Positions 1,743 through 64,000 of a stretch of 64,000 bases of DNA are shown in pieces. The position numbers and the translations under genes are program-made. Within the stretch, counting starts at the first letter, position 1. Every line of letters starts with the position of its first letter. The stretch is from Amoebophrya sp. A120 (lineage: Eukaryota; Protista; Dinoflagellata). The notes beneath the pieces are model-generated. The model searched no databases, was not told the DNA's origin, and saw only the letters and a program-made list of their open reading frames with translations. The stretch lies in the NCBI GenBank assembly GCA_905178155.1, contig CAJINV010000012.1, positions 3,475,988 to 3,539,987 on the forward strand, given 5' to 3'.

Positions 1743-4700
1743 ATGCCTGCACAGCAAGCTGCAGAGCACGACGATGGCGACGATTCTCCTAACGAAAACG
1801 ACGTGATTTTCTTCGCGAAGGAAACAAACACCTCGTCTGCAACGGAAGATGGGACGCAAATCCAGGTAAAGCAGCCACAACCGCATCAAGATTCTGCGGA
1901 TCACCGAGAAAACAACGAGCACCAATTCACCGCACAAGCAACCAGCTCGGATGACCAACAGGAAGGGCTCCCAGGTGTAGTTGGTTCTCGTGCAGCTGCT
2001 TCATCAGGTCGCGGTGGTCCACCCGCGCCACCGCCTGCACCGCCCGCGAGCCGGAGTACGGCTGGTGCGAGGATGATGAACTCTAGCGAAGGCGGGAGCA
2101 AAACTAAAGATGAGAAAGTACTTCGAGCAAACGACCTCGAAAAGGAACCAGAAGCGATTTCGCCAGAGGACGAAGACGTCAATGGTCTCAAGGAGCCGGA
2201 ACCGCCGCCAGAAGAAGGTGGAACGGCCCCCGAACAAGTTGGGGGTGGTGAAGCAGATAGAACAAATACCGCAGATCTAGTACTACCCGTTGCAAGCGGC
2301 GAAGAACTTCTGCAGCAAGGAGCTGCACACAGTAACAGCGATGACAATCCGACACTGGACGAACTACCTGCTTTGCCCGACGCAACCTCGGGGGCAGAAA
2401 TAAGAGCGAATCAGGTTTCGGTGTTGGCACAGGAGGAAAATGCGAAAGCGCTTGCGTCTTCCTCCCCACCTGCGATAAATGCTACGGCGGGACCGAGTGG
2501 AACCGCTGTTCGACTTCGAACAAGCACTGCTGTTCTCCGCACCGGCCCCAACTGGTACTGGACCTGCACACCGGAATTTGCGAAATGGTCTTCTGACCCT
2601 TTTACGAGAGGCAGAGGCCAAGAATCTACTGCAACTACAAACGTGCTACCAACGGCAGAGTTGTCGGCTTCTTCAGCAACTACGAACAACCTCTCTCTGC
2701 GGCTCTTCGTGACGATTTGGAATTTGCACGGGAAAACCCCGCCGGCGGATTTCTCCACCTGGATTCCGCATTCGAAGGAGAATCTGCATCACCTCTACGT
2801 GATCGGCACGTGCGAATCGTGTCAGACGATAAACCGGGCGATACTCCGCCCGAAACGGTCGAAATTGGCCAAATACGCCAGGGACTTTGAGACGTTTCTG
2901 AACTCGATAGAAGTGGAAGAAAACGGGGATGCAGAAAATCACGCCGAGTTGTCCCGATCTCCAGAAGGGCTAGGGTCAGCAGACCAGCAACTCCCACTGT
3001 ACACCCCGATCGTGATCAACTCGCTGGGGGCAACGCACTTGATGGTCTTCGCGCACAGGTCCATTTTGAAGATGATTTGGGACGTGAAAACCACGACGTG
3101 CGCCTTATGAAATGCAAAAGTGTCTGGGTCTGGAAGAATGCAACTTGTGATGCTGTATTTGGATTCCAAAAAAATCTGTATTGCATGAGTAGCAAACAGA
3201 ATGCAACTTTTTCTACGCTGAGAAGGCATTTGTTAGGCATCAAGAAGCCCTCAAAAAATCTGTATTGCTAGGGTATGCATCACAGACATCATCATGGCTC
3301 ATGCAAAACGTGCATGACAAGTGTCAGAATCTTCCAGACCCAGACACTTTTACAGTTGATACGCCTGCGGTTTCGGCAACTTGGTCGGGAACAAGGGCGG
3401 CGTTTTGCTGGGCATGAGTATCTATGCATTGCAAAAGTATGATCGTACTAGTATGATAATCGCGTGACAAATTTTCTCAAAGGGAGAAATGGAATTTGTA
3501 TATGCTTGCTCAACATCAACAGTTGATGTTGAACATCTAGTTTGCATACCTGCAATTTGTCTGTACGATAGTACTTGTGCAATGCATAGCATCGGGTCGA
3601 GTTCCTTTCTCTTCGTCTGCAGCCACCTGCCCGCGCACAAGTCCGGGATGAAGCAGCGGACCGCGGCGTTCAAGCGGATCATGAATTATTCGAAAGTGTA
3701 TTTGAAACCCGCGAAGAGAATGGCGAGCAATCATGGCGCGGAGGACGAAGAAGAGGGTCAGCGCTACGATGGCCACCGTGCTGGGCGGGGGACACCAGCT
3801 GTTGGAAAAAATACGGCGAACAGCCCAGCCTCGCGTGCTAGGCCGGCATGGCAAGCTGCTGATGGGGAAGCAGATCATGCTGGAAGATCTTCGACTGAAA
3901 GAGCTGGCACTACAGCATCTTCGCAGGAGAACAACCTCCTTCGTGACAGCACAGCAACAAACGGACCTTCCTCGTCCATGCGGGTTCAACTCCCGGGCGC
4001 GATTTTGGAAGAAGGAGCACACAGGAGCCATGCAGGGGAAGATGATGAATCGTCCTCGTCTCCAGATGTCGATCTTGATGCTGATGATGATCAAATAAAT
4101 CAGTCCCGAGAAATAATGCCTGCGCGAATAGTACTGACCGACGTCGATGAAGACGATCATTCTACTACGTTGATACAACCAGCAGCACCTCGAGGTGGAC
4201 AACTGCTGCGCCTGTCACCTACTTTGCCGGTTCGTCATATCAATCCAGGTACAACTAGCGGGCTACTGTGCGGTAGTAATGAAGATGATGCAGATCATCA
4301 GTTTCAAGATGCAGCTTCAGCTATCCTGTGCAAAAGTATCGTACTCGTAGTAATTGCAGTCATGCATTACAAATATCTTTGCTAAGGTAAATCCGCATGA
4401 CAAGTTTCATTTCTCATGCTGAGGAAATTTGTAATGCATTTATACGAGTGCGATGCTTTTGCAATGCATATCAGCTTCCTCCCCCTGCTCTCTCCTGTCG
4501 AGTAGATCCAGATCATCGTCGCGCGGTGCAGCAGCCGAATGTCTGCTCTACTCCAGTCGCAGTCCAACATCAGACGATGATGAAATAAACTCGAGTTCGT
4601 CGTCTTCTTCTGATGGGGTTCTGTTCTCGGAAGATGATGAGTTTTCTTCAGAGGAAGATGTTGCCGATGTTGAAAAGGGGGACTATCTGGAGCACTCCGG

Positions 4701-6760
4701 CAACTACCTGAATCTCTCATACCAGAGTCGGGAAGGCACGCACAACCGCGAAGAGTCTCCGAGCCTGTTCTCGCGGCTTTTCGGGGGAGGAGGCGGAGAC
4801 AAGAATCGGCCGAGAGTGCATCCGGTAGCTGCTCAACATGGGACCACGACGAGCACGCCAGCCTCCTCACAGCAACAGCAGCACCCAGGATCGAATTCCC
4901 AGGCAGATTTCGTTTTCTTTTTCGGCGACCTGAATTTTCGTTTGAACATGAAACGCGAGGCGGCCGATAATTGCATAGTGCAGTCGGATATCCTGTGCAA
5001 AAGTATCGTACTCATAGTAATCGCAACCATGCATTACAAATCTCCTTCTCAAGGACAAGGAGCTCAATCCGCATGACAAATTCTATTTTTCATGCTGAGG
5101 GAATTTGTCATGCGATTTCTACTACGTAGTAGTACGATACTTTTGCATTTCATATCGGACCACCGGAAACTACTCGCAAGTGACACGCTGCTGCCCATGC
5201 TCAGCATGTTTCAGCAGCCAAGAGCAGGGGCAGGGCCACCCCCTGTGGTCGTGGATGGGCACGAGCGCCAAACCAATGCAAGCAATTCTGCTCCTTCGTC
5301 ACAGCTACTACATCGACAAAGCTCCGAAGACAACGACAGTGCAACAGACGACATCCAACCGCGGGTCGTTTTACAGCAGCCGAATAGCAGTAGTGGAGTG
5401 GATAGGCACCGCGAAAGTATCGCACTACGTACAAATTGCATCACAAGTTTGATGTTCAGCATGAGAAATGGAATTTGCAATGTGGATTGACTTTGCAAAA
5501 GAGATTTGTAATGCATAAGAAGTGCGATTAGTACGAGTGCGGTAGTTCTTTTGCAGTGCATAGTGGAGGTGGGATCTCCAACCACGGGAATGAATTCCTC
5601 TCCGAACACAGGGTATGCAAGAAAAAAACTGTGTGAGTGTAAGTTTGTGAAGATGCAAAAAACGCAAGACGGTTTCCGAAGTGCAAGTTTACGAATCGCT
5701 CCTCACCCGTGGGGAGGCGTTTTTTTTGATTTTTTCGGTCGGTTTGAAAACGTCTGGCTCTGGCCAATTTTGAAAAATTGCAAGACTTTTGGTTTTTGCC
5801 TCAGCCGTTCCGCCACCTAGTACGAATCGCTCCTCACCCGTGGGGAGGCGGTTTTTTGGATTTTTTCGGTCTGTTTGCGAAAGACGGACGCTGGCCAATT
5901 TTGAAAAATTGCAAGACTTTTGGTTTTTGCCTCAGCCGTTCTGCCGCCTACGAATCGCTCCTCACCCGTGGGGAGGCGGTTTTTGTGATTTTTTCGGTCT
6001 GTTTGCAAAAGAGGGACGCTGGCCAATTTTGAAAAATTGCAAGACTTTTGGTTTTTGCCTTGGCCGTTCTGCCGCCTACGAAGCGCTCCTCACCCGTGGG
6101 GAGGCGGTTTTTTTTTTTCGGTCGGTTTGCAGAGACTGGAGGCTGGCCAATTTTCCAAAATTGCAAGATTTTTTGTGTTTGCCTCAGCCGTTCTGCCGCC
6201 TATGAATTCTCTCCACTGGTAGCTGCGCATGACAGGTTTTTACTGTATATGAAAAACGATCTGCTCTTTCTGCACGGTTACACACACTTTTTTCCTTGGA
6301 TACCGGAACCACGGCAGGGTACCAATCATCTTTCGGCGGTGTATCGGGAGCGGTCACGGATTTGTCGACACCAACTGGTGCCGGCTCCGGTGGAGCAGCT
6401 CCTTCGTGGTCCGAGTTTGCTGAGATGCCGATCAATTTTCCGCCGACGTACAAAATCAACGCGTTTACGAGGCTGGATTACGACACGTCCAAGAAAAAGC
6501 GCGTGCCAGCGTGGACCGACCGGATTTTGTACAAACCCAACAAAAATCTGAAACCCTTGTGCTACGACGCGATTTTTGACAACGAGCAACTCTACCTCTC
6601 TGACCACAGACCGGTGTACGCGCAATTTGAGGCGGAGCTGAAGAATGTGAACAGGTGGACGCCGCTTGGGGCCGCGGTGGACCAGGGGCAGAGTTTTGGA
6701 AGCAGTGTCTCCTCCTCTGCTGCGACTACCGGGGGAAGCTCAATGTGTGTGTTGATGTGA
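1743..6760 (+). CDS. Inositol polyphosphate 5-phosphatase (INPP5E-like), 7 exons, C-terminal CaaX
   Basis: Removing 6 introners joins IPPc motifs: FVTIWNLHGK, LYVIGTCE, CA|CGFGNLVGNKGGV, FLFVCSHLPAH, FFGDLNFRL, EMPINFPPTYK, KKRVPAWTDRILY, SDHRPV. Ends CVLM-stop. Confidence 0.9.
3106..3361. mobile_element. Introner family A (TIR ..AAAAnTGTCTGGGTCTGGAA)
   Basis: TATG..GATA, DR cgcct. Removal restores TTCA|CGFGNLVGNKGG. Confidence 0.9.
3423..3588. mobile_element. Introner family B (TIR ..GCAAAAGTATCGTACT)
   Basis: DR gtatc/gcatc, frame restored. Confidence 0.85.
4322..4470. mobile_element. Introner family B
   Basis: DR tcagc, frame restored. Confidence 0.9.
4989..5154. mobile_element. Introner family B
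   Basis: DR tcgga, restores QSD|HRKLL. Confidence 0.9.
5403..5562. mobile_element. Introner family B (degenerate)
   Basis: DR gtgga, frame restored. Confidence 0.85.
5614..6302. mobile_element. Introner family L containing a nested satellite array
   Basis: TIR tatgcaagaaaaaaactgtgtg / cacacacttttttccttggata, DR caggg/ccgga. Related to 39711-39920. Confidence 0.75.
5690..6204. repeat. ~128-bp satellite, ~4 units (inside an introner)
   Basis: acgaatcgctcctcacccgtggggaggcgg recurs at ~5691, 5822, 5950, 6078. Confidence 0.9.
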
Positions 6761-7164
6761 GTTTACACTTATTGACTATGCACAAGAAACGCAATCCCGA
6801 TCCATATCCACCTGACCAGTGATGGTTGAGATTGTGACTTTCCATAGGTCATACATGCGGCTTGCTTTCATTCTTGCCGCCGTGACGCAGACGTGGGTTC
6901 GGCTTTTTGGTGGTTCTTGCTACCACCTACTGGTGCGAGCCAGCAAGTTGACATTGGCCGTACAAGTTCTTAGCTCTCGGCATCTTTACTAACGGACGCA
7001 CGTCCGGCGCCATCATGTGAGGATGGAAAAAGGTGCGGTCGGCCGCACTGTTCGACAGCTTGAATGTCATAGCACGAGCAACAGAATATGAAGTGAAACT
7101 CCTGTCGGTACTTACATTGATTTTCCACTATCCCGTTTACGTTTTGGAGGTAGGTTGACGCTTA

Positions 7165-8082: not shown

Positions 8083-9256
8083 ATGGCCACACCGAGTAGA
8101 AGTGCAAGTCGTGCCAGCTCGCAGCGCTCCTCTGCGGGAGCGGGTCAATCCCGAACAGAGGAAGACTGCGAAAGGCTCGACGCGTGCCTGGACTTTCTCG
8201 TTCGAGTCGTTCCGCAAACAATTTTTGCTCCGTGCATAATGTTGACGGAAGCAGCGGCGGCGGGCGGTGGATCAACATCTTCTACAGCCGCGAGGAATTA
8301 TGCAACAGAGTCCGAGCGACAGGAGGCGGAACTCTACGCGAAGGTCCCGCAACTACTCTCCACCCAGTCGCACCTGCTAATTCCGAGACGCCGAATCATA
8401 TCGCAAGCTGTAGCACGACTGACGCTCCTCGGCCGAAGAGGTCCGCAAGGAGGAGGGGGAGCAAGAACCGCAACCACTTCTGGTTCTGAAGACGCGCCAC
8501 TAGTAGTAAACGAGTACGACGCAGATGAGGATATCAACGAAGCACTGAAGCAGATTGCCACGGTGCCGACCCTGCAGGCCGAGCTGTGGCGCCGGGACCC
8601 AGACGCGATTCCCGAACCGCTGCAAGCCGCGGTGTTGCACGTGTTTCTGCGGGATTTGGTCGCCAATTTTCAGAGGTTTGAGGACGAGTCGTTGATCAGG
8701 CGAGGGTCGGTTGGCAGCAAACAAACCAGCGACGCTGTGGACGAAGACGGGAAAATTTTTATTACAAGGAAAAATTATCACCCCTCCCCATATCGAAAAC
8801 GAAATTCAAATTTGTGATGCTGTATCTGAGAACACAACTCGACCTGTATTGCTAGAAGGCCAAGACCAAGAGCCACAGCTGTGGCCTCGTTTGCAGGCAA
8901 TTTGTCATGCTTCTTCCCACTTCCAGCTGCCTCCTGTCATGCTGAAGCTGCAAGGCTTGTTTCCCACGCCACCCAGCACTACAGGACTCCTGTAGTGCTG
9001 GGTGGCGTTCCAAGTAGTCCGCATCTTTTGCCTTCTAGCATGACAGAGCTGATTTCTTGTGGCCACACCCACAAATCTGCATCACAGATTTTCCCTTTCG
9101 TTTTGATACGGGGAGGGGGGATTTTTCTTCTTGATAGTTTTGATCGCGGGAACACGACCATCTCCACCACCACCTGTGGAGGTCGTAGACGAACAACCAG
9201 CTGAAGATCCTCCCCGCGCCGGCCCCCCGGCAGCACCTCGTCGAATCATCTGGTAA
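8083..9256 (+). CDS. Hypothetical protein, 2 exons
   Basis: ORF from ATG 8083 continues KIL|IAGTRPSPPPP..RRIIW* after removing element 8760-9136. No recognisable domain. Confidence 0.6.
8760..9136. mobile_element. Introner family C (TIR ..GGAAAAATCCCCCTCCCCATATC)
   Basis: DR atttt/gtttt, similar to 33485-33795. Confidence 0.85.
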
Positions 9257-9274
9257 CCAAAGCGTGCGCAAGCG

Positions 9275-9329
9275 CTCGCAAGAGCGCTTTGCGCGCGGGC
9301 TTGCCCGCGCGCAAAGCGCTCTTTGCGAG
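9275..9329. repeat. GC-rich hairpin, 21-bp perfect stem, TT loop
   Basis: aagagcgctttgcgcgcgggc-tt-gcccgcgcgcaaagcgctctt. Confidence 0.9.
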
Positions 9330-10103
9330 ATGCTCATCCATCGCAAACGCAGCGCGAAGGCTTTGCCGTTGCCATATGGGAGGGACTCGGGAGTATGCAA
9401 TCACTCGCAAAATCGGGCATTTCCAAGCGTGTTTTGCCGCCAGAAAGGGGATCTGAGAAAATTTGCGTAAGTTTTGCCGAAAGCAGCCAAAACAGTAATT
9501 ATCAAGCGGGGAGAGGGTAAAAAAGAGAAGTTTTATTGCTCCGCCCAGTCTGAATCTGAAAAAAGATATTGGCGTTTTCGGCTAGGGCCGACGGTGTGAT
9601 GCGTTTTATAGCGGAAAATGCGTCACGTGCAGGCAGCTCCGGCCGCTTAGAAATTGAAAAAAATTGCGAAAAAAACGCTATTTTTCGCAGCATGCAAGCG
9701 GCCGACTAAATTTACCGATTTTCTCCAGTTCCCGGAAACCGCTTGAAAATTGAAAATGACAATTTTTGCTGAAAAAGCAAAAGCCGCTTGAAAATTGCCG
9801 CTCAAAAGTGGTTTTCAAATTTGTCCGGAGGCCCGTGGCACCAGGATTGGACGACAAAAAAACAACTATCAAGCCTGTGGAGGTGTGTCCACCCCCCACG
9901 GTTTTCGACGTGTATGAAGGCCAGAATTGCGATCCTCCTCCCGCTTGGAAATGCCCGATCTGGGTGGCCCAAAAGGGCTGCCAGAAATGGCGAGAGTTGT
10001 TTAAATTTTTGAAGTTTGCGCATTTTCCCGGGCCAGCGTGCCGCCGTGCATAACGTTATGCGCGATGGAGTGCTGCTCGCCAAAAAACGCAGTCTTTTGC
10101 GCG

Positions 10104-10237
10104 CCCTTGCTTCCTGGTTAGAGGATGAGAGCGCGGCCCGAAGCGGGCTGCAGTGTTGGACCGCGGCCCTTGGGCCGCGGTCCAAGAGTGGTGCCCGCGA
10201 GGGCCGCGCTCTCATCCTCTAACCAGGAAGTCAAGGG
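10104..10237. repeat. Long imperfect palindrome (~65-bp arms), TT loop
   Basis: 10110-10139 is the reverse complement of 10201-10230. Inner stem ttggaccgcggccc-tt-gggccgcggtccaa. Confidence 0.9.
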
Positions 10238-10892
10238 ATGCGCGGTAGCCTTCGCGCTGATTGGGGCGCTTCGCACGCTTTTGGTTACCAATATCGCCCT
10301 CCGGGCGCGACCTTAATACGCCCGTCAGAAGCTTCTGATGCGGTCTTTTGCACACGCCTGCACATGTCCGAAAACGTTCCTGCCGGTTCCCTGCTGCTGG
10401 TGCTTGAGGAGTTACGAAATAAGCAGGTCCAGGCCATCGGTGCCTACGCGGAAACCACGGAGAACGACGGCGACGGGTCCACGTTTGTGCGCCGGTGCGG
10501 TCCGGACTGGCTTTCCTGTCCAGAAAAGTGTCCGAACAAACGCATCTATTACCTCACGACGGCAGGGTGAGGAGCAGGACCTGCTGGGTTAGCTGTAGCA
10601 GGAGGTGCTGGAGAAGGACTTACTTGGGAGCTGGAGAAGCAGACTGCGTGATCCATCTGGAGCGGTGAGGATGGGAAATGGGTTCATTTTCTGCAGCGCA
10701 ACGCGACCAAGATAGAAGAACACAGCTGCATCGCCTGAAATGATCATAATGCTGTGAAAATGTACAGTTGTTTATTGTATGACTACAGCAGGTTTGAAAT
10801 GAACAGAAACGACTTCACCTACGAGAAGATAATCACACACTGCAGCCGCGAAGAACATGATCTTTGCGAGGAGAATGAATTCTAACACTGCC

Positions 10893-15443: not shown

Positions 15444-18442
15444 ATGTTCACGAGTGAGATTTTGTCCTCGCGTTTAGGATGGAATCCGTTGCCGGTGCAT
15501 TTTGCTGAGGACAACGCGTTTCGGGTGTTGGAGGTGATCTCGTCCGAGACTACCGTGTTTGAGGTCTTGCAGGACCTCTTTCTGCTCGCTTGGTTCGGCA
15601 AGCAGGCCGACGGGTTTGATACTTTTACTATCTCCTGCTCGGGGCGGGTGGAAACAAGAACTACAAGTTGTCCAGCGTCTTCTACCTCTGCCACACAACA
15701 GGCAGTTTTACTCCACGAACAAGGGCCGCCGGGCGATAACAGTATAAAAACTTCTGCAGGTGAAGAACCAGCCCCAGCGGGAACATCAACTGCAAGAACT
15801 TCAGAACAGAGCGCTCCTCACAGTGTAGATTTAGTAGAGCACCATGCACATCATGCAGCTGTTGCTGTAGCAGATCCTGATCCTGCTTCAACATCCTCAA
15901 CATTTGGCGAAGATCCTCGACACCAGGGCCGCAAGGGCATCGACATCGCGGAAGTAGACCACGTGCTCCACACCGCGGCGCGCACGTCTGTAACGCACTA
16001 CAGCTATTTTCGCGACGAGGAGTTTCTTGTTCTACGGGAAGGTCCTCGTGCGAACTCCGATTGTCAAGATGAACGACCCAGCGGCACAAAAACAAGTCGG
16101 GGAAGTAGAAATCTAGGTGGCATCAGCACGACCATAACGACCCTGCAAAGTCAGCTTCTGAAAGCAGCCGGCGAACAAGAAGCTGGTAGTACGTACAACA
16201 AGAAGACCACTGCAGACACGACAGGACCACATCCTCAAGACGAGCCTCTTCTCGGTAGTACGGTACCCGCCACGACCCGTTTGCATTCGTCGAGTGCCTG
16301 CTTGACCCCTTTCTTCCGTCACGATGACGAGAAGTACCAGGCACTAGAGACCTTGGAAGCCCGCGAGCGGTTTCTCGAGCGGCAATACCGGTTATTGCTC
16401 CTCAGGATTCAGCAGGCGACGAAAACCTCGAACAAGCTTGTGGGATGTAGTAGTAGTACAACAACTTCTACTGCTTCTTCTACTACAGGGGTGCAACAAC
16501 TTCTAGCGGACGATAACTTTATCTCCAGTTGCGTGGATCCACTCTTCGCAGTCGTGCAACGAACCGATTCGAACGCAAATTGTAAAGCGACGAGCCGCAC
16601 CGGAGAACAAGTAGGCTCGTGTAGTTCATCCCCTGCTGCTGGTGCAGCTGACCACCTCCTGCAAGAACAGGACGACAGAGAGCAAAGGACCACCGCTGGT
16701 GCTGCTTTTTTCGAAAAAACCGTTCGGCTCTTCCTCCAGGGTCCGGGGTCTACCACCGTTTCGTCGACGAGAAGACTTCGGAATCGGAAAAAAGATCGTG
16801 TCCGCGACATAAACCTGCACGACCGGGAAGCTGCAGCCGGAGCTAGATCAAGATCTAGAGCAACGGTGGAAACAACTGCGGACCACAAGACGAGCTTTTT
16901 CCAGCGAGAGCTGTTTCTTTCTGAGCGCCCTCTGGAAATTTTGAAAAAAGCGGACGGTCACGGTGCTACCTTGAAGCTCGTGGTCGATCTCCGCCGGGTC
17001 TTCGAGTCGGAGAAACAAAAGCGGAGAAGTATCCTATGTAAAAACGTCCCCACCCCATAGTCAAGATGGGGAATCTGCTAGACAAATCAACCAGCTCTGG
17101 TTGCTACGCATGACAAGTTTATTTGCCTCGTAGTGTGATCCTGTTTAGCTAGCTCCAGCAGCATTACAGAGGACCTAGCGCATCGCACTGATTCGAGCAT
17201 CACAAGCACCGAAACACAACTAGAAAATAATGCCTGTGATGGGTCTCCGCATGAGAAACATTCGCAGCGTGCGCATTTGCATTTACAACTATGGGGTTGT
17301 GGAGGGGACGTTTTTACTCAGGATAAGAAGGTTTGAGTTCGTGCCCGATTTTGCGTTTTTGAAACAAGCCGAGCTGCTATCAAAGGAAAAAAGTTCGTCA
17401 CGATCACTCATGCGCATTTTCCCAATACAAAATTTTCTGTCATGCGTAAAAACGCATCAGAGCCACACTTCATAAGGGATTTCCCTAGTGTTTCTGCAAT
17501 ACAAGGAAAGGCTGCGATGCGAAAAAAATTTGTAATGCAAAACCTGCAAGTTAGTGACTGTGACAAACTTTTTTCTCTCCATAGCTGCCAGATGTGGATG
17601 TGGAAGACGACACTGTGCAGCTAATATGCATTGTAGAAGTACAATCCTCGTGCTCGTACTAGTTGTAACTATGCATGACATCAAATCTTGTCCTTAAGGT
17701 AAAACAGCATGACAAAATCCCGTTCTGATGCTGAAAAAATTTGTAATGCATTTGTACGAGTGCGATACTTTGCAGAGAATAGCTAACAAGCTTCAACAAC
17801 TCACCAGCAGGGGTGGACGAGCAAGAAGTGAATGATAATGATAGGGCCGCCGGCGCGAAGATAGAACTACGAGAGCCGCACCAGAATCAGGTTGTTCAAG
17901 CAGATCGATCGCAGGTGCACCTTATCAAGTGCAAAAATGTCTGGGTCTGGAAGAATTCATGTTTGTCATGCTTGTCTGGCATGACTCTTAAATCGGTCAT
18001 GCACGTTACCCAAGAGCTCCGTTTTTCTTTTTCTGTGATGCAGAAGCGCAGTTTGTTATGCAGAATCTGCAACACCTAGGAGCTCAGAAACTTGTCATGC
18101 TGAGCCAGCATTTGTAGCCTCATCATGAGACGCCACCCAGCATCACAAGTTTCCAGACCCAGACACTTTTGCATTTGATACACCTTTTTTCCACTCCGTC
18201 TCCGGCACCAGGGACTACACCAGAGGAAGTACGGACTAAAGCCCGTAGTTCACAGCATCATCAGGAGGAGTTCTTCGCGGATAATGAGTGCAAAGAACTA
18301 CGGGATAGAAGTAGCGCAGCTAGCGGCAAGACAAGAGCTGTTGACAAGAGTTGTGATCCACCCGCAGGAGCTGCGCCAGGAAGTAGAAGTACTAGGACTT
18401 CTGCAGCGCGGGGGGCCGACGAGGAACGGGACGAGAGGAGAA
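15444..18442 (+). CDS. Hypothetical protein; 3' end lost in repeat/gap, start uncertain
   Basis: 570-codon ORF stays in frame across 4 introners (RRR|FEFVPDF, EL|PDVDV, QL|TSFNN, HL|FSTP). Confidence 0.65.
17030..17325. mobile_element. Introner family E (TIR ..TAAAAACGTCCCCACCCCA)
   Basis: DR agaag. Confidence 0.9.
17378..17583 (+). mobile_element. Introner family D (206 bp)
   Basis: DR gctgc, near-identical to 26775 and 28373. Confidence 0.9.
17625..17781. mobile_element. Introner family B
   Basis: DR gctaa. Confidence 0.85.
17923..18180. mobile_element. Introner family A
   Basis: DR cacct. Confidence 0.9.
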
Positions 18443-19341: not shown

Positions 19342-19438
19342 NNNNNNNNNNNNNNNNNNNNNNNNNNNNNNNNNNNNNNNNNNNNNNNNNNNNNNNNNNN
19401 NNNNNNNNNNNNNNNNNNNNNNNNNNNNNNNNNNNNNN
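19342..19438. other. Assembly gap
   Basis: 97 N. Confidence 1.
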
Positions 19439-43967: not shown

Positions 43968-46382
43968 ATGTCTACGAAGGCAGTTGCAGTTCGTTCCAGT
44001 GAAAGTAGAATGTTGGTTACCACGAAAAACAAGGCGTCTGGCGGCCACGTCATGCTCTCGGCTCTGGCCGTGTTGGGGGCCGCGTACTCCGCGCCCGGCC
44101 TTGTGAACGGTGCGGGCTTGCGCCCCGCAGGTGCGACATCTAATTCTGAAGATCCGCCAGCAATCCGCGTATATCTTGGACTTGGCGGAAGCGTCGGTGG
44201 GACCTTGCCCAGGAGGCTCGACGCCTCTACGGCGGCACGTATGCTACACGACATGGCTTCGGGGCTAGCGCTAGTGCCAGCAAATGACAAAATCGTTTAC
44301 AACGGCCTTGCATGTCAGACTCAGACAGTTGATAGTTTGTTGCAGGGCCGTGCGGAGGATTTGGGCACTATCCTCCCACCCGGCACTGAGGAGATTAACT
44401 TATTCGCTGGAATGCCGGACTTGCTTGAGGAGATGCCTGCCGAAGGTGCGAGCCTTGGCCTTCCTGTCGATGGTGCAATGGATGATGAAGGCCAACTGGA
44501 GCAAATCTGCGAGGTCTTGCAAATCAACGCGGAGGACTTGCTCGAGGATCGGTACGCCGCACGGGCTAGAAAGAAGCACAAGCTCTCGGGAACTAAACTC
44601 GAGGACTATCTCGCGCATCTGCGCACGCAAGCGGAAGAGCACGTGAAGCGCACTCTTCCGGCCATCGGCAAGGAGAAAAACCCGGAACGCAAATTGGACC
44701 ACCAGCGCAAGTTGGTCAAGCTCATTTTTGCTTGGCGGAATTTAAACGGGTCCAAGGGCTGGGCGGGGTTTCCGGATATTGAGGAAACTAGACTGATTCA
44801 GATTAGCGCCTTTGCGATTATGGCGCTCTTCGGACACGCGCGAGCCAGCGAGCACGGCCAGAGCTACCCTTTTTTGTCGCCAACCCAGCTCGCGTTCAGC
44901 CACTTGTGTAGGTACTACGTCTTAGTGAAAGGGGAGTTTCGCGACGCTTTGAAGTCTGCCTGGGTCGCCCCGTTACCGGAATTCCCTCGCGCGGATCTTC
45001 AGGCATCGGATCATCCCCGTCGGATCTTCAGGCATCTAATAACCAACGTAGGTGGAATCGACATGAGCATGGCTGCCCTCGAACGATCCGCGAAGCGCTT
45101 AATGGAGAACGCAGCCCCCCCTCTCTCCCCTGCTGCTGACTGGGAATCACTACTACTACTAACGAAACAGGATCAAGCGAGGGTAGCAAGCTATCTAGAG
45201 GACATCGAAGCGCTGGCGTCCAGAGTCGAGCTTGGCGGTCCCGTCCGCTTTTTTGATGTCGATGGCATACTGATAACGGCAACCCGAGTGGGTTGGTCCG
45301 AAGAGCAAGAAGACGTCGACGAGTTTGCGGAAAAGTTCCACTTGGATGCTACCGGGTTTGGGGATCAACATAGTGAACATTTGCTCACATATGACCAGAT
45401 CCAGTCCGCGCGCGCGCACGCCGTAGAAGTAGAGTATGGATCTGTCAGGATTGAAATCGTCAAAGTTGAAATGATTTGCGGCCATGCATAAAATGCAAGG
45501 CATAAAGTGCCTGCCTTGCCGGGATGGCAAGGGGGGCAGATTGTGAGCCTATTTAGGGTTTGGGATAGAGCTGCTAAAAGAGCATGACAAAAGCAGTCTT
45601 CTGTGCCCAAACAGCATGACAAATTGGATTCCGGTGCTCCGAAGATTTGTCATGCGCCGCTTGAAAATTGGGCTTCCAACTGGTATCCATTTTATGCATG
45701 GCAAATCATTTCAACTTTGACGATTTCAAGCCTGACGCTTCCATATAGAACAAGGCAAGTCTAAGTTCGGCCAGTTTGTGCTCGAGAAGCTGAAGAGCGA
45801 TCTGGATGAGAAGGTGGAAATCATCATGAGAGCGGAGAAGGCTCGTCGCTGCGCTTCTTCGACCCATGAGCCAAACCGGGAAGCTACAACTACAAGTGAA
45901 GCGAATACGCAGCCCGCCGGTCGTACGGCGAGTACTACCGTGCTGTCCCAGACCAAGGCCGCTGTCAAGTTCAGGGCCAAGCGTGAGCGACGGCGTCGGG
46001 TTCGGCAGTACGCTTCTTCGCGCCGTGCGGTATGGATTGTAAAAATGTCTGGGTCTGGAAGAGTGCGCGATTTGTCATGCAGCTTTTCCATGACCCATGA
46101 GATGACCATGAGGTCTGGAATGCAGGTTCTAGCATGACAGATTCTGTGCGATCTCTCTCATGCCTCTCCTGCATGAGAAACTTCCTCCCGACTTGCTCTG
46201 GTAATCATGCAGCACAGATTTTTGCATGCTTTTTACTTCAATTCAATTCAATTCAGATTTAGCATGACAAGTTGCAATCTTCCAGACCCAGACACTTTTA
46301 CATTTGATACGCAGGTCCTCCGAGCACTTCTCGTGAAGCGGTTATTTCCCCAAGCGGGTCAACGTCTGAAGCCTTCCTTTGA
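43968..46382 (+). CDS. Hypothetical protein with hydrophobic N-terminal segment, 3 exons
   Basis: 508-codon ORF continues VEVE|QGKSKF and RRA|G after removing 2 introners. Stop is 46382, or 46389 if the GT-AG junction is used. Confidence 0.7.
45435..45745. mobile_element. Introner family G
   Basis: ~55-bp TIR tatggatctgtcaggattgaaatcgtcaaagttgaaatgatttg, DR tagag/tagaa. Confidence 0.9.
46031..46309. mobile_element. Introner family A
   Basis: DR tgcgg/cgcag. Confidence 0.8.
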
Positions 46383-47326: not shown

Positions 47327-47346
47327 TATGATCAATGTGTCGTCGT

Positions 47347-58700: not shown

Positions 58701-61700
58701 AACAAGCCGAAACAGTACTACACTGGGCGCACCAAATTTGTCATGCGTAGGCTTTACGCGTGCTGGTGTTTGTATTCGTATTGCTGTACATGCTAAAAAA
58801 ATGATGGGGAGGCGGGGAAGTCCGAGTTGTGCATCTTCATACAAGAATTCTGACGACGAGAACGATAACGCGAACAAACCGAGGCTGGAGCAGATCCAGG
58901 AGGAGGACTCCGCCGAAGTGGAACTGGAAGACGCGTCCGAGCAATTCGCGAACGCTGGGGGGGCTGGCGGGTTATCCGGGTCGATTATGGAAGCGGCTAG
59001 CAGCAGGCGGAGAATGATGTCGGACTTGTACAACATATCAAATGCAAATATGTCTGGATCTGGAAAGGAGGAACTTGTAATGCGTGTCATGCATACCAAT
59101 ACCTGGAAAATCTGTGTTGCATGAGCAGCAAATGGGCTCCTGCTTCCCTTGTCATGCAAAAACGCAGTTTGTAATGCGTGTTAGGCATTAGTGGCGCTTG
59201 CTTCGGAAGCTTGTCATGCTTCGCTGCCATTGAAAGCGTTGCAATCATGCGCAACTCAGCATGACAGGGTTCCAGACCCAGACATATTTACATTTCGTAC
59301 AACAGGCGGCGGTCCGCGAGGTTCAGCTTAGCGGATGAGTACGGCATTACGCCTATCGTATTTAAAAACGTTCCCAACCCATAGGATAGTCGTAATGCAA
59401 ATCTGCATGCTGGAAATGTTTCTCATGCGGAGCCCCATGCGAAGCATTCTCTAGCCACGTTTTGGAATTTGTCATGCTCCAATCAGCATGATATACTAAA
59501 TCTGTAATGCTGCTGAGCTAGCTCAAACAGCACGACACTACGACTCCAAATTTGTCATGCGAAACAGCCAAAGCTTGTGGATTTGTCTAGCCGATTCCCC
59601 ATCTTGACCATGGGGTGGGGACGTTTTTACGTAGGATAACGCCGAGTGGGAAGTCGTCTGTCCGGACGAGCCGGAGGACCTCCCGGGCGTACACCTCTTA
59701 TCCTGTGCAAAAGTATCGTATTCGTAGTAATCCCATTCATGCATTACAAATTTCTTTCTCAAGTTAAATCCGCATTACAAATTTCCTTTCTCATGCTGAG
59801 GAAATTTGTATTGCAATTCATACTTACTAGTACGATACTTCTCCACAGGATACCTCTGATTCGATGACAACGACGAGAAGAACGTCTCTCAATCTATTAG
59901 ACCACACGAGCGGGAACGTGATCGACAGTCTGCGAGAGTTGTCCGGGGTTATCAAGTGTAAATAGTGTCTGGGTCTGGAAGAGTGCATGTTTGTCATGCT
60001 TGTCTGCCATGACTCTCAAATCTGTCACGCACGTTACCCAAGAGCGCCATTTTTCTGTGATGTAGAAACGCAGTTTGTCATGCAGAATAGGCAACACATA
60101 GAAGAAGCTCAGAAACTTGTCATGCTGAGCGAGCACTTGTGGCCTCCTCACGATACGCCACCCAGCAGCACAAGTTTCCAGACCCAGACGCATTTGCATT
60201 TGATAGGAGTGGCGAATTCCCAATTCGACAAGCTGCCCGTATGGGATTCTCAATTGTTACATTCTCAACTGTTACAGGAATTTGTCATGCAAAAGCACCA
60301 TCATCATCCTCACGATCAAGCTACTCCGCATGACAAATTTGGCAAGGCCTAAAGCGCGCCTAAATCTGTGCGGAATTCGTAATGCTACAGGTGCAACCTT
60401 CCCCCTTGTACTTTTCCAATTCTTGCATCACAAGTTCATGTAACAGTTCTTGAGAATGTAACAGTTGAGAACGCCATAGCCCGACCTGGCGATTGCTTGC
60501 GACCACTCGGTTTTTGTGATTAAACGGTCTGGCACTTTGGAAATGTCCTTCGTCGCGGGGAACATTTTATCCAGGAGAAAACACCCATCCCCCCATCCAT
60601 TGGTTGCATGACAAACAAAGGAGCTTATTCATGTTTTGCATGACAAATTGGATGGGGATGGGTGTTTTTTTCTGGATGCGTTTCCGAATACGGCTACAAG
60701 GACGCGGCGAAGGGTTCGGACGCGCGGTTTAGCCAGATCCGGGGAATTTGCTCGATTCGGAATTCTATCAACTGCAACCTTATCGTACTAGTTAATGAAT
60801 TGCAATACTTACAAAGTGACTCCGCATTAAGGATATCCGATATTCAAGTTTGTAGTTTGGATTTACCTTAGCAGCGTAGAGTTGAGTTGTAGTGCATAAG
60901 TGGAACTACTACGAGTACGACTACGTCGGTACTTTTGCATTGGATAAGTTCCGTCTTCGTCGCTGACCATTGGAACAACGCGGTCCGGTGTATCTATCCA
61001 GTGAAAATATGTCTGGGTCTGGAAACTTGTGATGCTGGCTTGGGAATGGTGGACACACTGCAATACGCAGCCAAACATGACAAATTCTTAAGCTGCTATG
61101 TGTTCTTGCGAGGTCTGCATGTGCAGGGCAAACTGCGGCTGCGAGTTCTGCATGGCAGACTGGGGTTTTGCACGGGAGGCAAGAGACTCTCATCCTGCTC
61201 ATGCATCACAGAGGTAGGAGTCATGAGAGACAAGCATGACAAACTTCTACTCTTCCAGACCCAGCAGATCGATATTTGCAATGCATAGCATCAATTTGAA
61301 AACCACGGGGGTCGACACGGTCATGGACTTTGAGCCAAACGGGCCGCTTATCTTGAGTAAAAATGTCCTCATACCAGAGTTGTCATGCAAATGCGCAATG
61401 AGAGCAACATTTGTAATGCGCGTCTCCATGAAAGGCACTTCCACTCGTGTTTTGGACTTTGTAATGCTGTAGGCAGGATGGGAGGCTGGATTTCTCATCC
61501 GGCTTCCCTTGCTAACCAGCACTACACTGCAGATGGAAGCTTTTCATGCGCAGCGCCCAAAACTTGGAGATTTGTGTTGCTGATTTACCAACTTGACTAT
61601 GGGGTGGGGACGTTTTTACACAGAATACCGCTGAAACTGACAGCCTCCGACTCTGGGTATTTGTACGTTCTGGACTCCGACACAATTCACATGTGCAACA

Positions 61701-64000
61701 TTTTGAAAATCTGTTCGGTGCAGCGGGAAAATCTGAGCACGTCCGGAGTTATCCACAGTAAATTTCCCGTACACGTGCAAATGCGGTCTCTGCATGGCAA
61801 GACTTGGCTTCGATCCTAGTTTAATAGCATGACAAGTTTCACACTCCAAATTGGGGAAATTTGTGATGCATCTTGTACATGTACGGGAATGGGAAATTTG
61901 TATTGCATAGGAGTGAATGGAAGCTCACTGGGCACCTTGTCGTTCCAGAACTTGCAGAAGCAAACGCTTTCTGGCATCGGAAATCATGCTGCTGGTGCAA
62001 GCAATACAAGAAGCAGCATCGGTGGAGCTGCCGGTGGTCCTGTGCCGCCGACAACTGGAGCTGTATCTACTGCATCGCCCGCCGTCGGTGGTGGTGTGAG
62101 CAAGGGCACTTTGCTGGGGGGAAAGAGTCCCATTCTCTCCGCTAGGAAGCTTTCCTTCACACCGAACCTGAACACGAAGACCGAGAATAACGAGAACACC
62201 TCCTCCGCCAGCAGCTCTAGCGGCGGTGCAGAGACGACCAGTGCTGACAGCAACCAACTTAACGTCAACAGGAACCAACCCCGGTCCGGGTCCTTCTTAG
62301 ACGCGAATTGGCGCACTGTATGATGATTTGCAAATATGTCTGGGTCTGGAAGATCCTAAACTTGTGATGCTGTCTCTGGATTCTAAACAAAATTGTGTAG
62401 CATGACCAGCAAGATGAGGGCTCCAGTTTGATGTCCTACGCGGAGAGGGCATTTCTCATGCGGTAGAGGCATCGCATAGCCGTCTGAAAATCTGTGATGC
62501 TAGGACATGCATCACAGACATCATGGGTCATGCAAAATGTGCATGTTGACAAACCTGGCAATCTTCCAGACACAGACATATTTGTAGTTGACACACTGCC
62601 ACGGATCACAAGAGTTTTCAGGATATGCTGTGCCAAAGTATCGTACTCGTAGTAATCGCAGTCATGCATTACAAATTTTTTTGTCAATGTAACTCCGCAT
62701 TACAAATTTCATTTCTCATGCTGAGGGAATTTGTCATGCATTTATACGAGTACGATACTTTTGCAATTCATACAGGAAGAACGGAAACGAAAGCTGTCCG
62801 CGGCTGCAGTGGAGTTCAATTTTGCCGCGGCGGCCGCGGGCACCATGGTAGCAGGTGGTGGACGAGGAGTTCCTCTTGGTGCGTCAACTTCTTCTACGGG
62901 AAAAATATATGCTGGTACTTCGACTTCCTTTCCCACCCCATGCACAGTGCCCAAAGTCGTCGTATCGGTACTACCCGCAGGATCAGCAGCTGCATCTACT
63001 TTCCATGCCGGAGCGACCGGCGCAGGAGCAGGTTCACAAACTGCGCCCCACGGCGCAGCTGTGGTTGGTTTCTCACTGGACGACGATGATGACGATGATG
63101 AAGAAGACAGCGAGACGGAAAACGATTCGCGTTCGGAATCCGCGGTAAGCTCCAGAACATCCAAGACAACCTCCACTACAAACAAGAACAACCAAGGAAT
63201 AAATGGTAATGGAAATGAAAGCTCGACGTCCACCTCCAAGGTCGTCGTGGATACCGATACCAAGAACAATCCACCGAATGGAGCGGTCGTTTCGATTGTG
63301 CAAGTGCAGGTGCCCGGGTCACCGGTGAAAAGCAAGAGTCATTTATCGGCGTCGGCGGAAGTAGGCTCAGCTGGCTCATCTAGTACGGGCAAAAGCGCCA
63401 GCTGCAATGGTCCTCTACTACAGGACGTCGCAGGAGATCAGCATAGTCCTCGCGATGCATCTTCATCAAAGACTGTTCAAAATAACCTGAACCTCCTTCA
63501 ACCTGTCAACTCCTCCGCGTCCAATGCCTCCAGTTCCCGCCGTGGCAGTTTTTCCGATCCTTCGATTCTCAACGCCCCGAACCTCCCCGGTTTCAACCCA
63601 AACAACTTGACCAATATGAACTGCAAAAGTATCGTACTCGTATAAATGCATTACAAATCTTCTCAGCATGAGAAATAAAATTTGCAATGCGGATTTGACT
63701 TAGCGAAAAGATTTGTAATGCTTGATTGGAATACGAGTACGATACTTTTGCACAGGATAACCAACCACGGGGACCAAAACGCGAATTTGCTCATGATGCC
63801 AAATCATCAAATGTAAAAATGTCTGGGTCTGGAAGAATGCAACTTGTAATGCGTATTTCAGAACACAGAAAAGTCTCTCATGCATACGTAGCAAAAGCTG
63901 CCCACTTTCTGTCAGCAAAGTAGGGGACTTGTCATGCGGATTCGGCATTGCGGAAGCTTCTCGAAACCTGTGATGCTAGAGCTTCCATGCCAGACCTTCT
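55716..64000 (+). CDS. Large NHL-repeat (beta-propeller) protein with low-complexity linkers; partial, continues beyond window
   Basis: NHL motifs: ANGIALYENDLFLADSMSHAIFRI; GFRDGPRALAQFNGPSGLCI..LYVADTRNDSIRAID; reassembled GYKDAAKGSDARFSQIRGICSIRNS|VFVADHWNNAVRCI|NL. Confidence 0.85.
56102..56272. mobile_element. Introner family I
   Basis: DR ctctg/ctctc, related to 61750. Confidence 0.8.
56383..56633. mobile_element. Introner family A
   Basis: DR cagtt. Confidence 0.9.
56684..56832. mobile_element. Introner family B
   Basis: DR gaaaa. Confidence 0.9.
57299..57551 (+). other. Probable canonical GT-AG intron (donor position uncertain)
   Basis: A phase-1 join G|GC restores the frame. Pyrimidine-rich acceptor ending tcag. 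Confidence 0.55.
57587..57838. mobile_element. Introner family A
   Basis: DR accac. Confidence 0.9.
57900..58049. mobile_element. Introner family B
   Basis: DR gtgta (extends to 12 bp). Confidence 0.85.
58579..58841. mobile_element. Introner, family J-like (degenerate)
   Basis: DR caaca/caaga, frame restored. Confidence 0.7.
59036..59299. mobile_element. Introner family A
   Basis: DR caaca. Confidence 0.85.
59354..59638. mobile_element. Introner family E
   Basis: DR acgcc. Confidence 0.9.
59699..59852. mobile_element. Introner family B
   Basis: DR cctct. Confidence 0.9.
59950..60205. mobile_element. Introner family A
   Basis: DR ggggt/ggagt. Confidence 0.85.
60240..60478. mobile_element. 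Introner family F
   Basis: DR gcccg. Confidence 0.9.
60568..60678. mobile_element. Introner family M (111 bp, shortest)
   Basis: TIR tatccaggagaaaacacccatcccc / ggggatgggtgtttttttctggatg, DR cattt/cgttt. Confidence 0.85.
60766..60946. mobile_element. Introner family B (degenerate)
   Basis: DR aattc/agttc. Confidence 0.8.
60995..61287. mobile_element. Introner family A
   Basis: DR gtatc/gcatc. Confidence 0.85.
61349..61627. mobile_element. Introner family E
   Basis: DR ccgct. Confidence 0.85.
61750..61909. mobile_element. Introner family I
   Basis: DR ggagt. Confidence 0.85.
62319..62593. mobile_element. Introner family A
   Basis: DR cactg. Confidence 0.85.
62624..62772. mobile_element. 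Introner family B
   Basis: DR cagga. Confidence 0.9.
63615..63759. mobile_element. Introner family B
   Basis: DR accaa. Confidence 0.9.
63805..64000. mobile_element. Introner family A (cut by window edge)
   Basis: catcaaatgtaaaaatgtctgggtctggaag. Confidence 0.8.

What the first reader, a model, noticed from the sequence alone, without database searches (positions are those of the whole stretch)
3106..64000. One internal motif, GCAT(G/T/C)ACAA / TTGT(C/A/G)ATGC, is shared by otherwise unrelated element families
Seen: families with no TIR or core similarity usually carry several copies of this ~9-mer, in both orientations. Examples: B 4322 (gcattacaaa, gcatgacaag, tttgtaatgc), G 45435, L 39711, F 21523, J 26994, H 35146, C 33485, I 61750. 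Even the 111-bp minimal element M (60568) is essentially TIRs plus two gcatgacaaa copies. By eye the motif is scarce in exons and intergenic DNA, and family K shows little of it. Inference: a common recognition code, such as a binding site for a shared transposase, a host DNA-binding protein or a splicing factor that licenses excision. This is the best handle on the unknown machinery.
Basis: partly seen in the sequence, partly recalled or inferred. Interest (0 to 1): 0.85.

Follow-up and report, generated by a model that had tools for sequence, protein, structure and literature searches.

The report
Shared conserved motif in hairpin introners
A nine-letter DNA word, GCAT(G/T/C)ACAA, occurs only inside the small hairpin-shaped mobile elements that interrupt this parasite-like genome's genes, is kept unchanged by selection in nearly all their families, and is likely the docking site of the unknown protein that moves them.

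Summary
GCATBACAA occurs 148 times in the window, against about 2 expected. All 148 sites lie in 15.7 kb of TIR elements and none in the other 48.3 kb. Twelve of 13 TIR-defined families carry it.

The elements fit the published Amoebophrya A120 introner elements: TAT termini, a 5-bp target duplication, and exact non-GT-AG removal from RNA-like contigs.

The pattern repeats in 438 kb of independent contigs: 937 sites, in 20 of 23 element clusters.

The eight fixed letters change about half as fast as neighbouring internal letters, even on terminal branches. The centre letter changes freely but is almost never A.

"Otherwise unrelated families" is overstated. All families share TAT ends and the 5-bp duplication, and many share an A-run.

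Best reading (0.45): a double-strand DNA binding site for the unknown mobilising protein. Copies peak 30-49 nt from the ends, there is no strand bias, and motif-free hairpin introns are still removed.

Main rival (0.27): an RNA-level cue for the unusual splicing. No transposase was found.

Neither paper I searched nor the full-text searches showed the motif in print.

The parts
3106..3361 (.). Family A element (about 260 bp; TIR ...GTCTGGGTCTGGAA). It has 5-bp TSD CGCCT and 2 exact motif copies. It sits at the end of an Exo_endo_phos2 exon.
4322..4470 (.). Family B element (149 bp) with TSD TCAGC. It carries three motif copies in the recurrent +31+34- arrangement, at 4364-4372 (+), 4395-4403 (+) and 4429-4437 (-).
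5614..6302 (.). 689-bp TAT-ended element with four internal tandem repeats and only one one-mismatch motif copy. Contig arithmetic shows it is still removed from RNA-like contigs.
8760..9136 (.). Family C element with 2 exact copies. The 382-nt skip 8755>9138 is seen in three RNA-like runs.
9252..10295 (+). 1,044-nt hairpin intron of another class. It starts GGTAACC... and ends ...ATC, has no TAT end, no 5-bp repeat and no exact motif. It is removed in three RNA-like runs.
17030..17325 (.). Family E element with TSD AGAAG and 2 exact copies, both in the same orientation.
17378..17583 (.). Family N element with TSD GCTGC and 1 exact copy plus degenerate copies.
21523..21888 (.). Family F element with 1 exact copy plus degenerate copies.
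26994..27215 (.). Family J element with 2 exact copies, both antisense to the + strand. It is removed together with the neighbouring N element (joint 26774>27216).
27621..27849 (.). Family K element with 0 exact copies and 1 one-mismatch copy. Degenerate copies sit at the subterminal places that align with family G.
34213..34536 (.). Family C copy with no exact motif. The arithmetic on X3 record 1 fits only if it is removed.
35146..35451 (.). Family H element with 3 exact copies. The outer two are mirror-placed just inside the TIRs.
39711..39920 (.). Family L element with 2 exact copies in the same orientation. Record arithmetic shows a 215-nt removal (210 + 5).
40482..40651 (+). Canonical GT..AG intron with no motif. 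It sets the gene's strand as +.
45435..45745 (.). Family G element with 3 exact copies in a B-like +32+33- arrangement but different spacers.
60568..60678 (.). Minimal 111-bp family M element. It consists of TIRs plus two same-orientation GCATGACAA copies, at 60606 and 60638.
61750..61909 (.). Family I element with 2 exact copies. Its right terminus reads TAT followed by a one-mismatch motif (GCAATACAA).
1731..6757 (+). Host gene. Exo_endo_phos2 (phosphatase-type) domain pieces run in collinear order across ORFs, which are separated by A and B elements.

Best explanation
GCAT(G/T/C)ACAA, usually followed by R-T-T, is a selectively conserved multi-copy repeat carried by nearly all TAT-ended, 5-bp-duplication introner families here, and it is likely the double-strand DNA site where the still unknown mobilising protein (a transposase or its cofactor) binds.

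Shown:
- The motif is confined to these elements.
- It sits mostly 30-49 nt inside each end, in either orientation, at about 2 to 3 exact copies per element.
- Its eight fixed letters evolve about half as fast as their neighbours, while the centre letter drifts among G, T and C.
- The elements are removed from RNA exactly (element plus one 5-nt repeat), at non-GT-AG ends.
- The TIR arms carry a sense-strand G-U bias, as expected of an RNA hairpin.

Inferred:
- The TIR stems serve RNA-level removal. This would explain why their sequences differ so much between families.
- The shared TAT end plus the shared motif would be what one mobilising enzyme recognises on DNA.
- In this it would work like the subterminal repeats of Ac/Ds and En/Spm, or the inner and outer sites of IR/DR elements (these analogies are recalled, not tested).
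For: 1. Class specificity. All 148 exact sites are in elements and none in 48.3 kb of other DNA. The motif is absent from the one canonical intron seen and from a 1,044-nt non-TAT hairpin intron.

2. Present across families. It occurs in 12 of 13 window families. In independent contigs it occurs in 20 of 23 clusters and 250 of 263 elements. Masking the motif removes all cross-family BLAST hits.

3. Subterminal placement. Exact copies start no closer than 30 nt to an end and peak at 30-49 nt, in both orientations. Thirteen of 118 termini read TAT followed directly by a one-mismatch copy.

4. Strand symmetry. Counts are 74 + and 74 - in a window transcribed mostly on +, and 473 of 937 in the loci. 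Motif transition variants show no strand bias (48 against 37, p=0.28).

5. Sequence is kept, not structure. The centre letter is free (G 519, C 243, T 175) but rarely A (12). In family B the centre is unpaired in the consensus fold, and only 2 of 30 pairs covary.

6. Selection. Private terminal-branch changes are depleted at the fixed letters. In family A the rate is 0.030 against 0.053 (156 observed, 266.6 expected after base and CpG control). In family B it is 0.027 against 0.073 (18 observed, 51.2 expected).

7. Removal from RNA does not need the motif.
Against: - No transposase or long TAT-ended element was found in the window. None was found in 438 kb of related contigs either: 70 of the 117 ORFs of 230 aa or more were scanned.
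- Farhat et al. report no transposase in A120 and argue against transposase-mediated mobilisation (passage read).
- The depletion of private changes is what selection on already inserted copies would give, and that favours a function in place such as RNA processing. I could not separate changes before insertion from changes after it.
- Motif orientation relative to the ends differs between families. In A the reverse form is at the left end; in B the forward form is.
- 81% of motif letters are paired in predicted single-strand folds, the same as the TIRs, and 62 of 141 sites pair with another copy. A stem-level role is therefore possible.
Confidence: 0.45

Rival explanations
1. The motif is an RNA-level cue. 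It would be read in the folded transcript, probably as a stem segment GCAUNACAA paired with UUGUNAUGC, by a factor that helps the U1-less, non-GT-AG removal of these introns.
For: - All elements are introns removed with single-nucleotide precision.
- 81% of motif letters are paired in predicted folds, and 62 of 141 sites pair with another copy.
- In 30 in-register motif-motif stems, the centre letters form 18 Watson-Crick and 2 G-U pairs.
- Private changes are depleted 2- to 3-fold at the fixed letters, as expected if inserted copies stay under host selection.
- The TIR arms show a sense-strand G-U excess of 176 against 121 (p=0.0017). The internal control shows none (141 against 176). RNA-level selection does therefore act on these elements.
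- Farhat et al. report that U1 snRNA is missing and the splicing route is unknown (passage).
Against: - A 1,044-nt hairpin intron with no motif is removed in three RNA-like runs.
- A 689-nt TAT element with a single one-mismatch copy is removed, as are two copies with no exact motif.
- There is no strand bias.
- Families E, L, M and J carry copies in one orientation only, and asymmetric family B is removed in both orientations.
- The distance to the ends is not fixed.
- Motif variants show no G-U-type strand asymmetry (low power).
Confidence: 0.27
2. The motif is the site of a host DNA-binding protein acting in place, for example in chromatin, silencing or control of cruciforms. It would serve neither mobilisation nor splicing.
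For: Strand symmetry and sequence-specific constraint on inserted copies fit a double-strand DNA reader.
Against: Nothing explains why only this element class would carry it, or why it sits just inside the TIRs. No candidate protein was found.
Confidence: 0.1
3. The motif is a passive relic: all families descend from one element or exchange modules, and the motif is simply what is left.
For: - G, H and K are alignable (66% identity over 247 nt for G and H).
- B, G and I share a three-copy layout with similar spacing.
- All families share TAT ends.
Against: - The fixed letters change at about half the rate of their neighbours in every identity class, while the centre letter, lying between them, changes at the neighbour rate.
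- Copy number and position differ between families.
- No similarity is left once the motif is masked.
Confidence: 0.05

Closest known systems
Introner elements of Amoebophrya sp. A120 (Farhat et al. 2021, PMC7789003; classed as 'TIR DNA, unknown' in Gozashti et al. 2025, PMC12130899)
   Same: Inverted repeats start with TAT, followed by about 7 variable letters and an A-run. Direct repeats are 5 bp. Intron ends are non-canonical. Elements are roughly 150-320 nt long, fall into many families, and are exactly absent from RNA.
   Different: Neither paper's text or held supplements, as far as I searched them, mentions a conserved internal motif shared across families. I could not check that the window is that genome, because no genome is held.
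Subterminal repeats of Ac/Ds (hAT) and En/Spm (CACTA) elements, bound by the transposase or TnpA (recalled, not tested here)
   Same: A short motif occurs in several copies and both orientations just inside the TIRs. It is shared by non-autonomous relatives.
   Different: The target duplication here is 5 bp, not 8 or 3. The TIR bodies differ completely between families. No autonomous partner or binding protein is known. The elements also act as introns.
IR/DR ends of Tc1-like elements such as Sleeping Beauty and Tc3 (recalled)
   Same: A terminal site is paired with a similar inner site. Here, 13 of 118 ends read TAT followed by a one-mismatch motif.
   Different: There is no TA target duplication. 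The inner copies are 30-49 nt in rather than about 160-200 nt. There are further central copies.
Introners of Micromonas, Aureococcus and Polarella (Huff 2016 as cited; Gozashti 2022 and 2025, seen as search listings and passages)
   Same: These are MITE-like elements that create introns on insertion.
   Different: According to the passage, Aureococcus introners always have canonical splice motifs, whereas the elements here are removed at non-GT-AG ends set by the hairpin.
Non-conventional hairpin introns of euglenids (recalled), and hairpin-bounded odd introns noted in other dinoflagellates by this scan (e1-7695377, e1-7626498; unchecked)
   Same: Intron ends are brought together by pairing, and there is no GT-AG.
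   Different: No shared internal sequence word is known for them. The window's own non-TAT hairpin intron lacks the motif.

Membership tests
Amoebophrya A120-type introner elements | Terminal inverted repeats beginning TAT, then about 7 variable letters, then an A-run | tested here: met
   T1 118/118, A2 118/118, T3 115/118. A at positions 11-14 in 94 to 114 of 118 ends. Families F, G, H, J and K lack the A-run.
Amoebophrya A120-type introner elements | Short direct repeats (3-5 nt) flanking the element | tested here: met
   45 of 55 auto-detected elements have an exact 5-bp repeat and 10 have 4 of 5 matching.
Amoebophrya A120-type introner elements | Removed from RNA at non-canonical boundaries | tested here: met
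   joints skip the element plus 5 nt (for example 38631>38786, 40942>41223, 8755>9138), with ends such as AT..AT and CC..TA. The runs are labelled only as 'RNA?'. They also skip a GT..AG intron.
Amoebophrya A120-type introner elements | Lies in that organism's genome | not testable with these tools
   No genome is held for the window. Identity is inferred from the published description only.
Transposase-binding subterminal repeats | Several copies, in both orientations, near both ends | tested here: met
   plus 2.1-2.5 exact copies per element in families A and B.
Transposase-binding subterminal repeats | Shared by the autonomous element | not testable with these tools
   No autonomous element was found in the window or the loci.
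Transposase-binding subterminal repeats | Bound by the transposase | not testable with these tools
   This needs EMSA or pull-down.
Spliceosomal cis signal (branch site, splice-site mimic or enhancer) | Orientation bias towards the sense strand | tested here: not met
   74 + against 74 -. 473 of 937 in the loci, where the strand is unknown.
Spliceosomal cis signal (branch site, splice-site mimic or enhancer) | Present in all introns removed by the same route | tested here: not met
   It is absent from the 1,044-nt hairpin intron and nearly absent from the 689-nt TAT element, and both are removed.
Spliceosomal cis signal (branch site, splice-site mimic or enhancer) | Fixed distance to a splice site | tested here: inconclusive
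   There is a broad peak 30-49 nt from the ends, with many copies elsewhere.
Tc1/mariner IR/DR elements | TA target-site duplication | tested here: not met
   The duplication is 5 bp with no composition preference.
One ancestral element (common descent only) | Cores align outside the motif and the motif decays neutrally | tested here: not met
   No hits remain after masking. The fixed letters are constrained.

The most novel reading that the evidence does not exclude
The motif is the address label of a dedicated, sequence-specific factor that acts on the folded transcript. That factor would license exact, U1-independent removal of TAT-type hairpin introns. It might be the same transposon-derived protein that also recognises the DNA for mobilisation, so that one code would serve both spreading and harmless excision from mRNA.
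Probability: 0.18. Interest if true: 0.9.

Novelty: new variant of a known kind. Interest (0 to 1): 0.62.

Why it matters
These introner elements make up a large share of the introns in an Amoebophrya-type genome. Neither the enzyme that spreads them nor the route that removes them from mRNA is known (Farhat et al., passages).

A 9- to 12-letter word that is present in nearly all families, under clear selection and absent elsewhere gives a concrete bait for pull-downs. It comes with a built-in negative control: centre letter A, or changes to G1 or C2.

It also gives a search key for the autonomous element, and a variable to test against intron retention.

Finally, it suggests a division of labour. 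The variable TIR stems would serve RNA removal, and the shared TAT end plus motif would serve mobilisation. This would explain how very many TIR families (1,954 in A120 by Farhat's count) could depend on one machinery.

Tried and rejected
- No whole genome is held, so no genome-wide counts, snRNA search or autonomous-element search could be run.
- Earlier findings by place and by sequence gave nothing.
- Full-text search for the motif strings returned only unrelated primer-type hits.
- Rfam gathering scan of the window: 0 matches.
- Viral contigs scanned with the family A TIR pattern: 0 matches.
- Pfam on 8 plus 48 window ORFs and 70 locus ORFs found host domains only and no transposase.
- A search for TAT-ended elements of 0.7-15 kb with an exact 5-bp duplication gave one chance pair in the window, and an 834-bp and a 1,104-bp element in the loci.
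- PNAS 2025 supplements give family classes but no sequences. File 14 was not searched.
- The look-up of sequencing runs listed no holder on record as RNA. The 'RNA?' labels are guesses.
- Raw RNA runs X9 and X10 laid almost nothing on this locus (128 and 2 reads).
Splicing of E2, E3, F2, M, I and G is therefore untested.
- Splicing of K is also unseen, because 36 joints were not listed.
- The pairwise divergence test with motif columns defined from the query is biased by ascertainment. One search replaced it.
- A last script was meant to infer transcription strand from ORFs and repeat the G-U and motif-variant strand tests on the loci. It gave no result.
- A branch-point reading was considered and dropped. 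The centre letter would have to pair as A, yet A is the one excluded letter, and there is no sense-strand bias. This rests on recalled U2 pairing rules.
- Likenesses to U6 and U4 snRNA, Sox-Oct and PUF sites were recalled, judged unconvincing and not tested.
Full report
**What the window is**

The window has 45-52% G+C and no whole genome is held for it. It is eukaryotic and packed with short TIR elements.

An automatic search looked for TA...TA ends with at least 15 of 24 complementary letters and a 5-bp flanking repeat with at most one mismatch. It gave 55 non-overlapping elements, 45 of them with an exact 5-bp repeat. With hand-added and degenerate copies I annotated 70 elements and remnants, totalling 15,725 bp.

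Of 118 scored ends, 118 begin TA and 115 begin TAT. The fourth letter is C (59) or G (56). Positions 11-14 are A in 94-114 ends.

This matches the published description of Amoebophrya sp. A120 introner elements. That description gives inverted repeats starting TAT, then about seven less conserved letters and an A-run. It also gives direct repeats of 3-5 nt, non-canonical splice sites, 1,954 families, no U1 snRNA and no transposase found (Farhat et al. 2021, PMC7789003; passages read, supplement legends).

Gozashti et al. 2025 (PMC12130899; passages, table rows) class 58 A120 families, mostly as "TIR DNA, unknown". That the window is this organism is an inference from the description, not a sequence test.

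**The elements are introns**

- **Collinear host gene.** An Exo_endo_phos2 domain is split in collinear order over + strand ORFs that end and begin at elements (profile positions 3-105, 122-162, 159-195 and 216-288).
- **Precise skips.** Contigs of runs labelled "RNA?" (a guess by the tool) skip element plus 5 nt, with 4-7 letters ambiguous at the joint. Examples are 25236>25504 (267), 28366>28578 (211), 36038>36365 (326), 38631>38786 (154), 40266>40422 (155) and 40942>41223 (280).
- **Strand.** The same contigs skip one GT..AG intron (40481>40652), which puts that gene on the + strand.
- **More runs.** A second lay shows 8755>9138 (382) in three such runs.
- **DNA control.** Contigs of the DNA-like run X1 run from unique sequence into the elements.
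- **Limits.** Only 15 of 51 joints and 15 of 400 joints were listed.

**The observation**

GCATBACAA has 148 exact sites against 2.11 expected. GCATGACAA is the commonest 9-mer in the window. All 148 sites lie in annotated elements. None lies in the other 48,275 bp, where 1.2 are expected. One-mismatch copies are enriched inside elements (146 against 28.7) and not outside (34 against 38.9).

Twelve of 13 TIR-defined families carry exact copies, at 5-18 per kb. Family K has none. The consensus extends to H-GCAT-B-ACAA-R-T-T.

With TIRs trimmed, cross-family BLAST hits are weak and motif-centred, except G with H (66% over 247 nt) and G with K. With the motif masked there are none.

So the families are not alignable as one element. 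They are still not unrelated, because they share the TAT end, the 5-bp duplication and often the A-run. Some A and B copies share the first 13 letters.

**Replication elsewhere**

None overlaps the window by 800 bp or more.

In 437,646 non-redundant bases there are 937 exact sites, 473 of them on the given strand. The centre letter is G in 519, C in 243, T in 175 and A in 12.

A strict search (exact 5-bp repeat, at least 16 of 24 TIR letters) found 263 elements in 23 clusters. Of the elements, 250 hold at least one exact copy. Of the clusters, 20 hold exact copies. The other three are single elements with 2-7 one-mismatch copies.

The loci were chosen through family A, so they are element-rich by design.

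**Anatomy**

- Exact copies never start closer than 30 nt to an end and peak at 30-49 nt, in both orientations.
- Thirteen of 118 ends read TAT followed at once by a one-mismatch copy, mostly TATGCATTGCAA.
- Family B has a fixed +31+34- triple. Families G and I share the layout but not the spacers.
- Families E, L, M and J carry copies in one orientation only.
- In predicted single-strand folds, 81% of motif letters are paired. The figure is 81% for TIR letters and 62% for other internal letters.
- Of 141 sites, 107 are paired at 7 or more of their 9 letters, 62 of them with another copy.
- In 30 in-register motif-motif stems, the centre letters form 18 Watson-Crick pairs, 2 G-U pairs and 10 mismatches.
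- The family B consensus fold leaves the centre unpaired and shows compensatory change in only 2 of 30 pairs.

**Selection**

*Window copies.* The majority-letter fraction is shown below.

| Class | Family A (20 copies) | Family B (25 copies) |
|---|---|---|
| TIR | 0.885 | 0.871 |
| Eight fixed motif letters | 0.819 | 0.913 |
| Centre letter | 0.583 | 0.685 |
| Other internal letters | 0.616 | 0.754 |

*Close pairs.* In 11 independent close pairs, with motif columns set from the family consensus, divergence is 8.9% at fixed letters and 18.8% at other internal letters (p=3e-6). It is 7.4% in TIRs and 27.5% at the centre.

*Larger sets.* With 165 A copies and 54 B copies, the fixed letters diverge at about half the internal rate or less in every identity class. 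In the closest A pairs the figures are 3.3% against 6.7% (13 pairs, p=7e-4). The centre changes as fast as other internal letters or faster, except in the closest A pairs (4.1% against 6.7%).

*Terminal branches.* Changes private to one copy, against its two nearest relatives, are depleted at fixed letters:

- Family A: 0.030 against 0.053 (odds ratio 0.55).
- Family B: 0.027 against 0.073 (odds ratio 0.35).
- The depletion holds without CpG sites, for transversions alone and after standardising for base. That gives 156 observed against 266.6 expected in A, and 18 against 51.2 in B.

Per-letter rates are G1 0.017, C2 0.013, A3 0.034, T4 0.024, centre 0.062, A6 0.038, C7 0.042, A8 0.025 and A9 0.048.

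A centre letter that drifts inside a protected word argues against a mere low mutation rate in stems.

I could not separate changes made before insertion (selection on mobile lineages) from changes made after it (selection on the host gene).

**RNA-level selection acts on the TIRs**

Mismatches between the two arms are G-U-compatible in the + strand RNA 176 times and in the - strand RNA 121 times (p=0.0017). As a control, transitions away from the family consensus show the same bias in TIR columns (70 against 40) but not in internal columns (141 against 176).

This assumes + strand transcription across the window. The support is, plus 31 of 45 ORFs of 150 aa or more lying on +.

Motif transition variants show no significant strand asymmetry (48 against 37, p=0.28). 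The power of that test is low.

**Is the motif needed for removal from RNA?**

Four cases say it is not strictly needed:

1. A 1,044-nt intron (9252-10295; GG..TC ends, a 17-nt terminal stem, no TAT, no 5-bp repeat) has no exact motif and one chance-level one-mismatch site. It is skipped in three RNA-like runs.
2. X4 record 15 lacks 1,030 nt between 4984 and 6304. That equals two B elements plus the 689-nt TAT element 5614-6302, each with 5 nt added. The 689-nt element has a single one-mismatch copy.
3. X3 record 1 lacks 3,140 nt between 33115 and 37858. I expect 3,150 if all 13 annotated elements there are removed. Two of them have uncertain ends.
4. That interval includes a C copy (34213-34536) and a B copy (37721-37857) with no exact motif. 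Keeping either in the RNA would not fit.

These copies still hold degenerate versions, so a weak requirement is not excluded.

Asymmetric family B is removed in both orientations. The canonical intron has no motif.

**Weighing the readings**

A sequence-specific reader is implied. A double-strand DNA reader tied to mobilisation best fits the class specificity, subterminal placement, strand symmetry, motif-like termini and motif-independent splicing.

It also explains an oddity. The TIR bodies can differ freely between families if they serve only as RNA stems, while the TAT end and the motif are what the enzyme sees.

Against this reading, no enzyme is known or was found. The terminal-branch depletion could also mean selection on inserted copies, which favours an RNA-level role.

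I put the DNA mobilisation reading at 0.45, the RNA cue at 0.27, another in-place DNA-binding host factor at 0.10, and a passive relic at 0.05.

**Comparison with what is known**

The elements themselves are known (Farhat 2021; Gozashti 2022 and 2025). I found no mention of a shared internal motif in the following:

- Farhat main text: terms motif, internal, loop, hairpin and transposase.
- Farhat's held supplement.
- The PNAS 2025 text: terms subterminal, internal motif and binding site.
- Full-text searches.

Figures and bioRxiv supplements could not be seen. In function the closest known things are subterminal transposase-binding repeats (recalled). Hence my rating: a new variant of a known kind.

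Noticed in passing
window 9252-10295: A 1,044-nt hairpin intron of a different class. It has GG..TC ends, a terminal stem GGTAACCAAAGCGTGCG, no TAT end and no 5-bp repeat. It is removed in three RNA-like runs and contains a perfect 30-nt inverted repeat at 10110-10230.
   Followed up: partly
window 5614-6302: A 689-bp TAT-ended element with L-like TIRs. Its interior is four tandem repeats of about 120 bp. It has almost no motif yet is removed from RNA.
   Followed up: partly
window 25533-25748: A single-copy TAT-ended intron with 5-bp repeat GAATT, removed in RNA-like contigs (joint 25532>25749). It has only degenerate motif copies. One is at its very terminus (TATGCAACACAAAT) and one has the rare centre A.
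   Followed up: partly
window 17378, 26775, 28373: All three family N copies sit in an AGCTGC context. Two have the identical duplication GCTGC. This could be a target preference or a repeated exon motif.
   Followed up: no
window 47560-48125: A dense cluster of inverted and tandem repeats built on AAAGTGAAATCTCACTGAGATTTCACTTTTT, including a 57-nt near-perfect palindrome. It has no motif and is not a TAT element.
   Followed up: no
window, family B ends (e.g. 4322-4470): The two ends of family B differ consistently in letters 4-9: TATCCTGTG at one end and TATG(C/A)AWTG at the other. The outermost letters are therefore not complementary.
   Followed up: no
window 25474-25504 and 36845-36889: Raw RNA reads of a run with the same species label (X9) match only parts of family A elements, at 95-99% identity, and continue into unrelated flanks. 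This suggests a different strain whose transcripts contain element fragments.
   Followed up: no
window 19342-19438: An assembly gap of 97 N.
   Followed up: no
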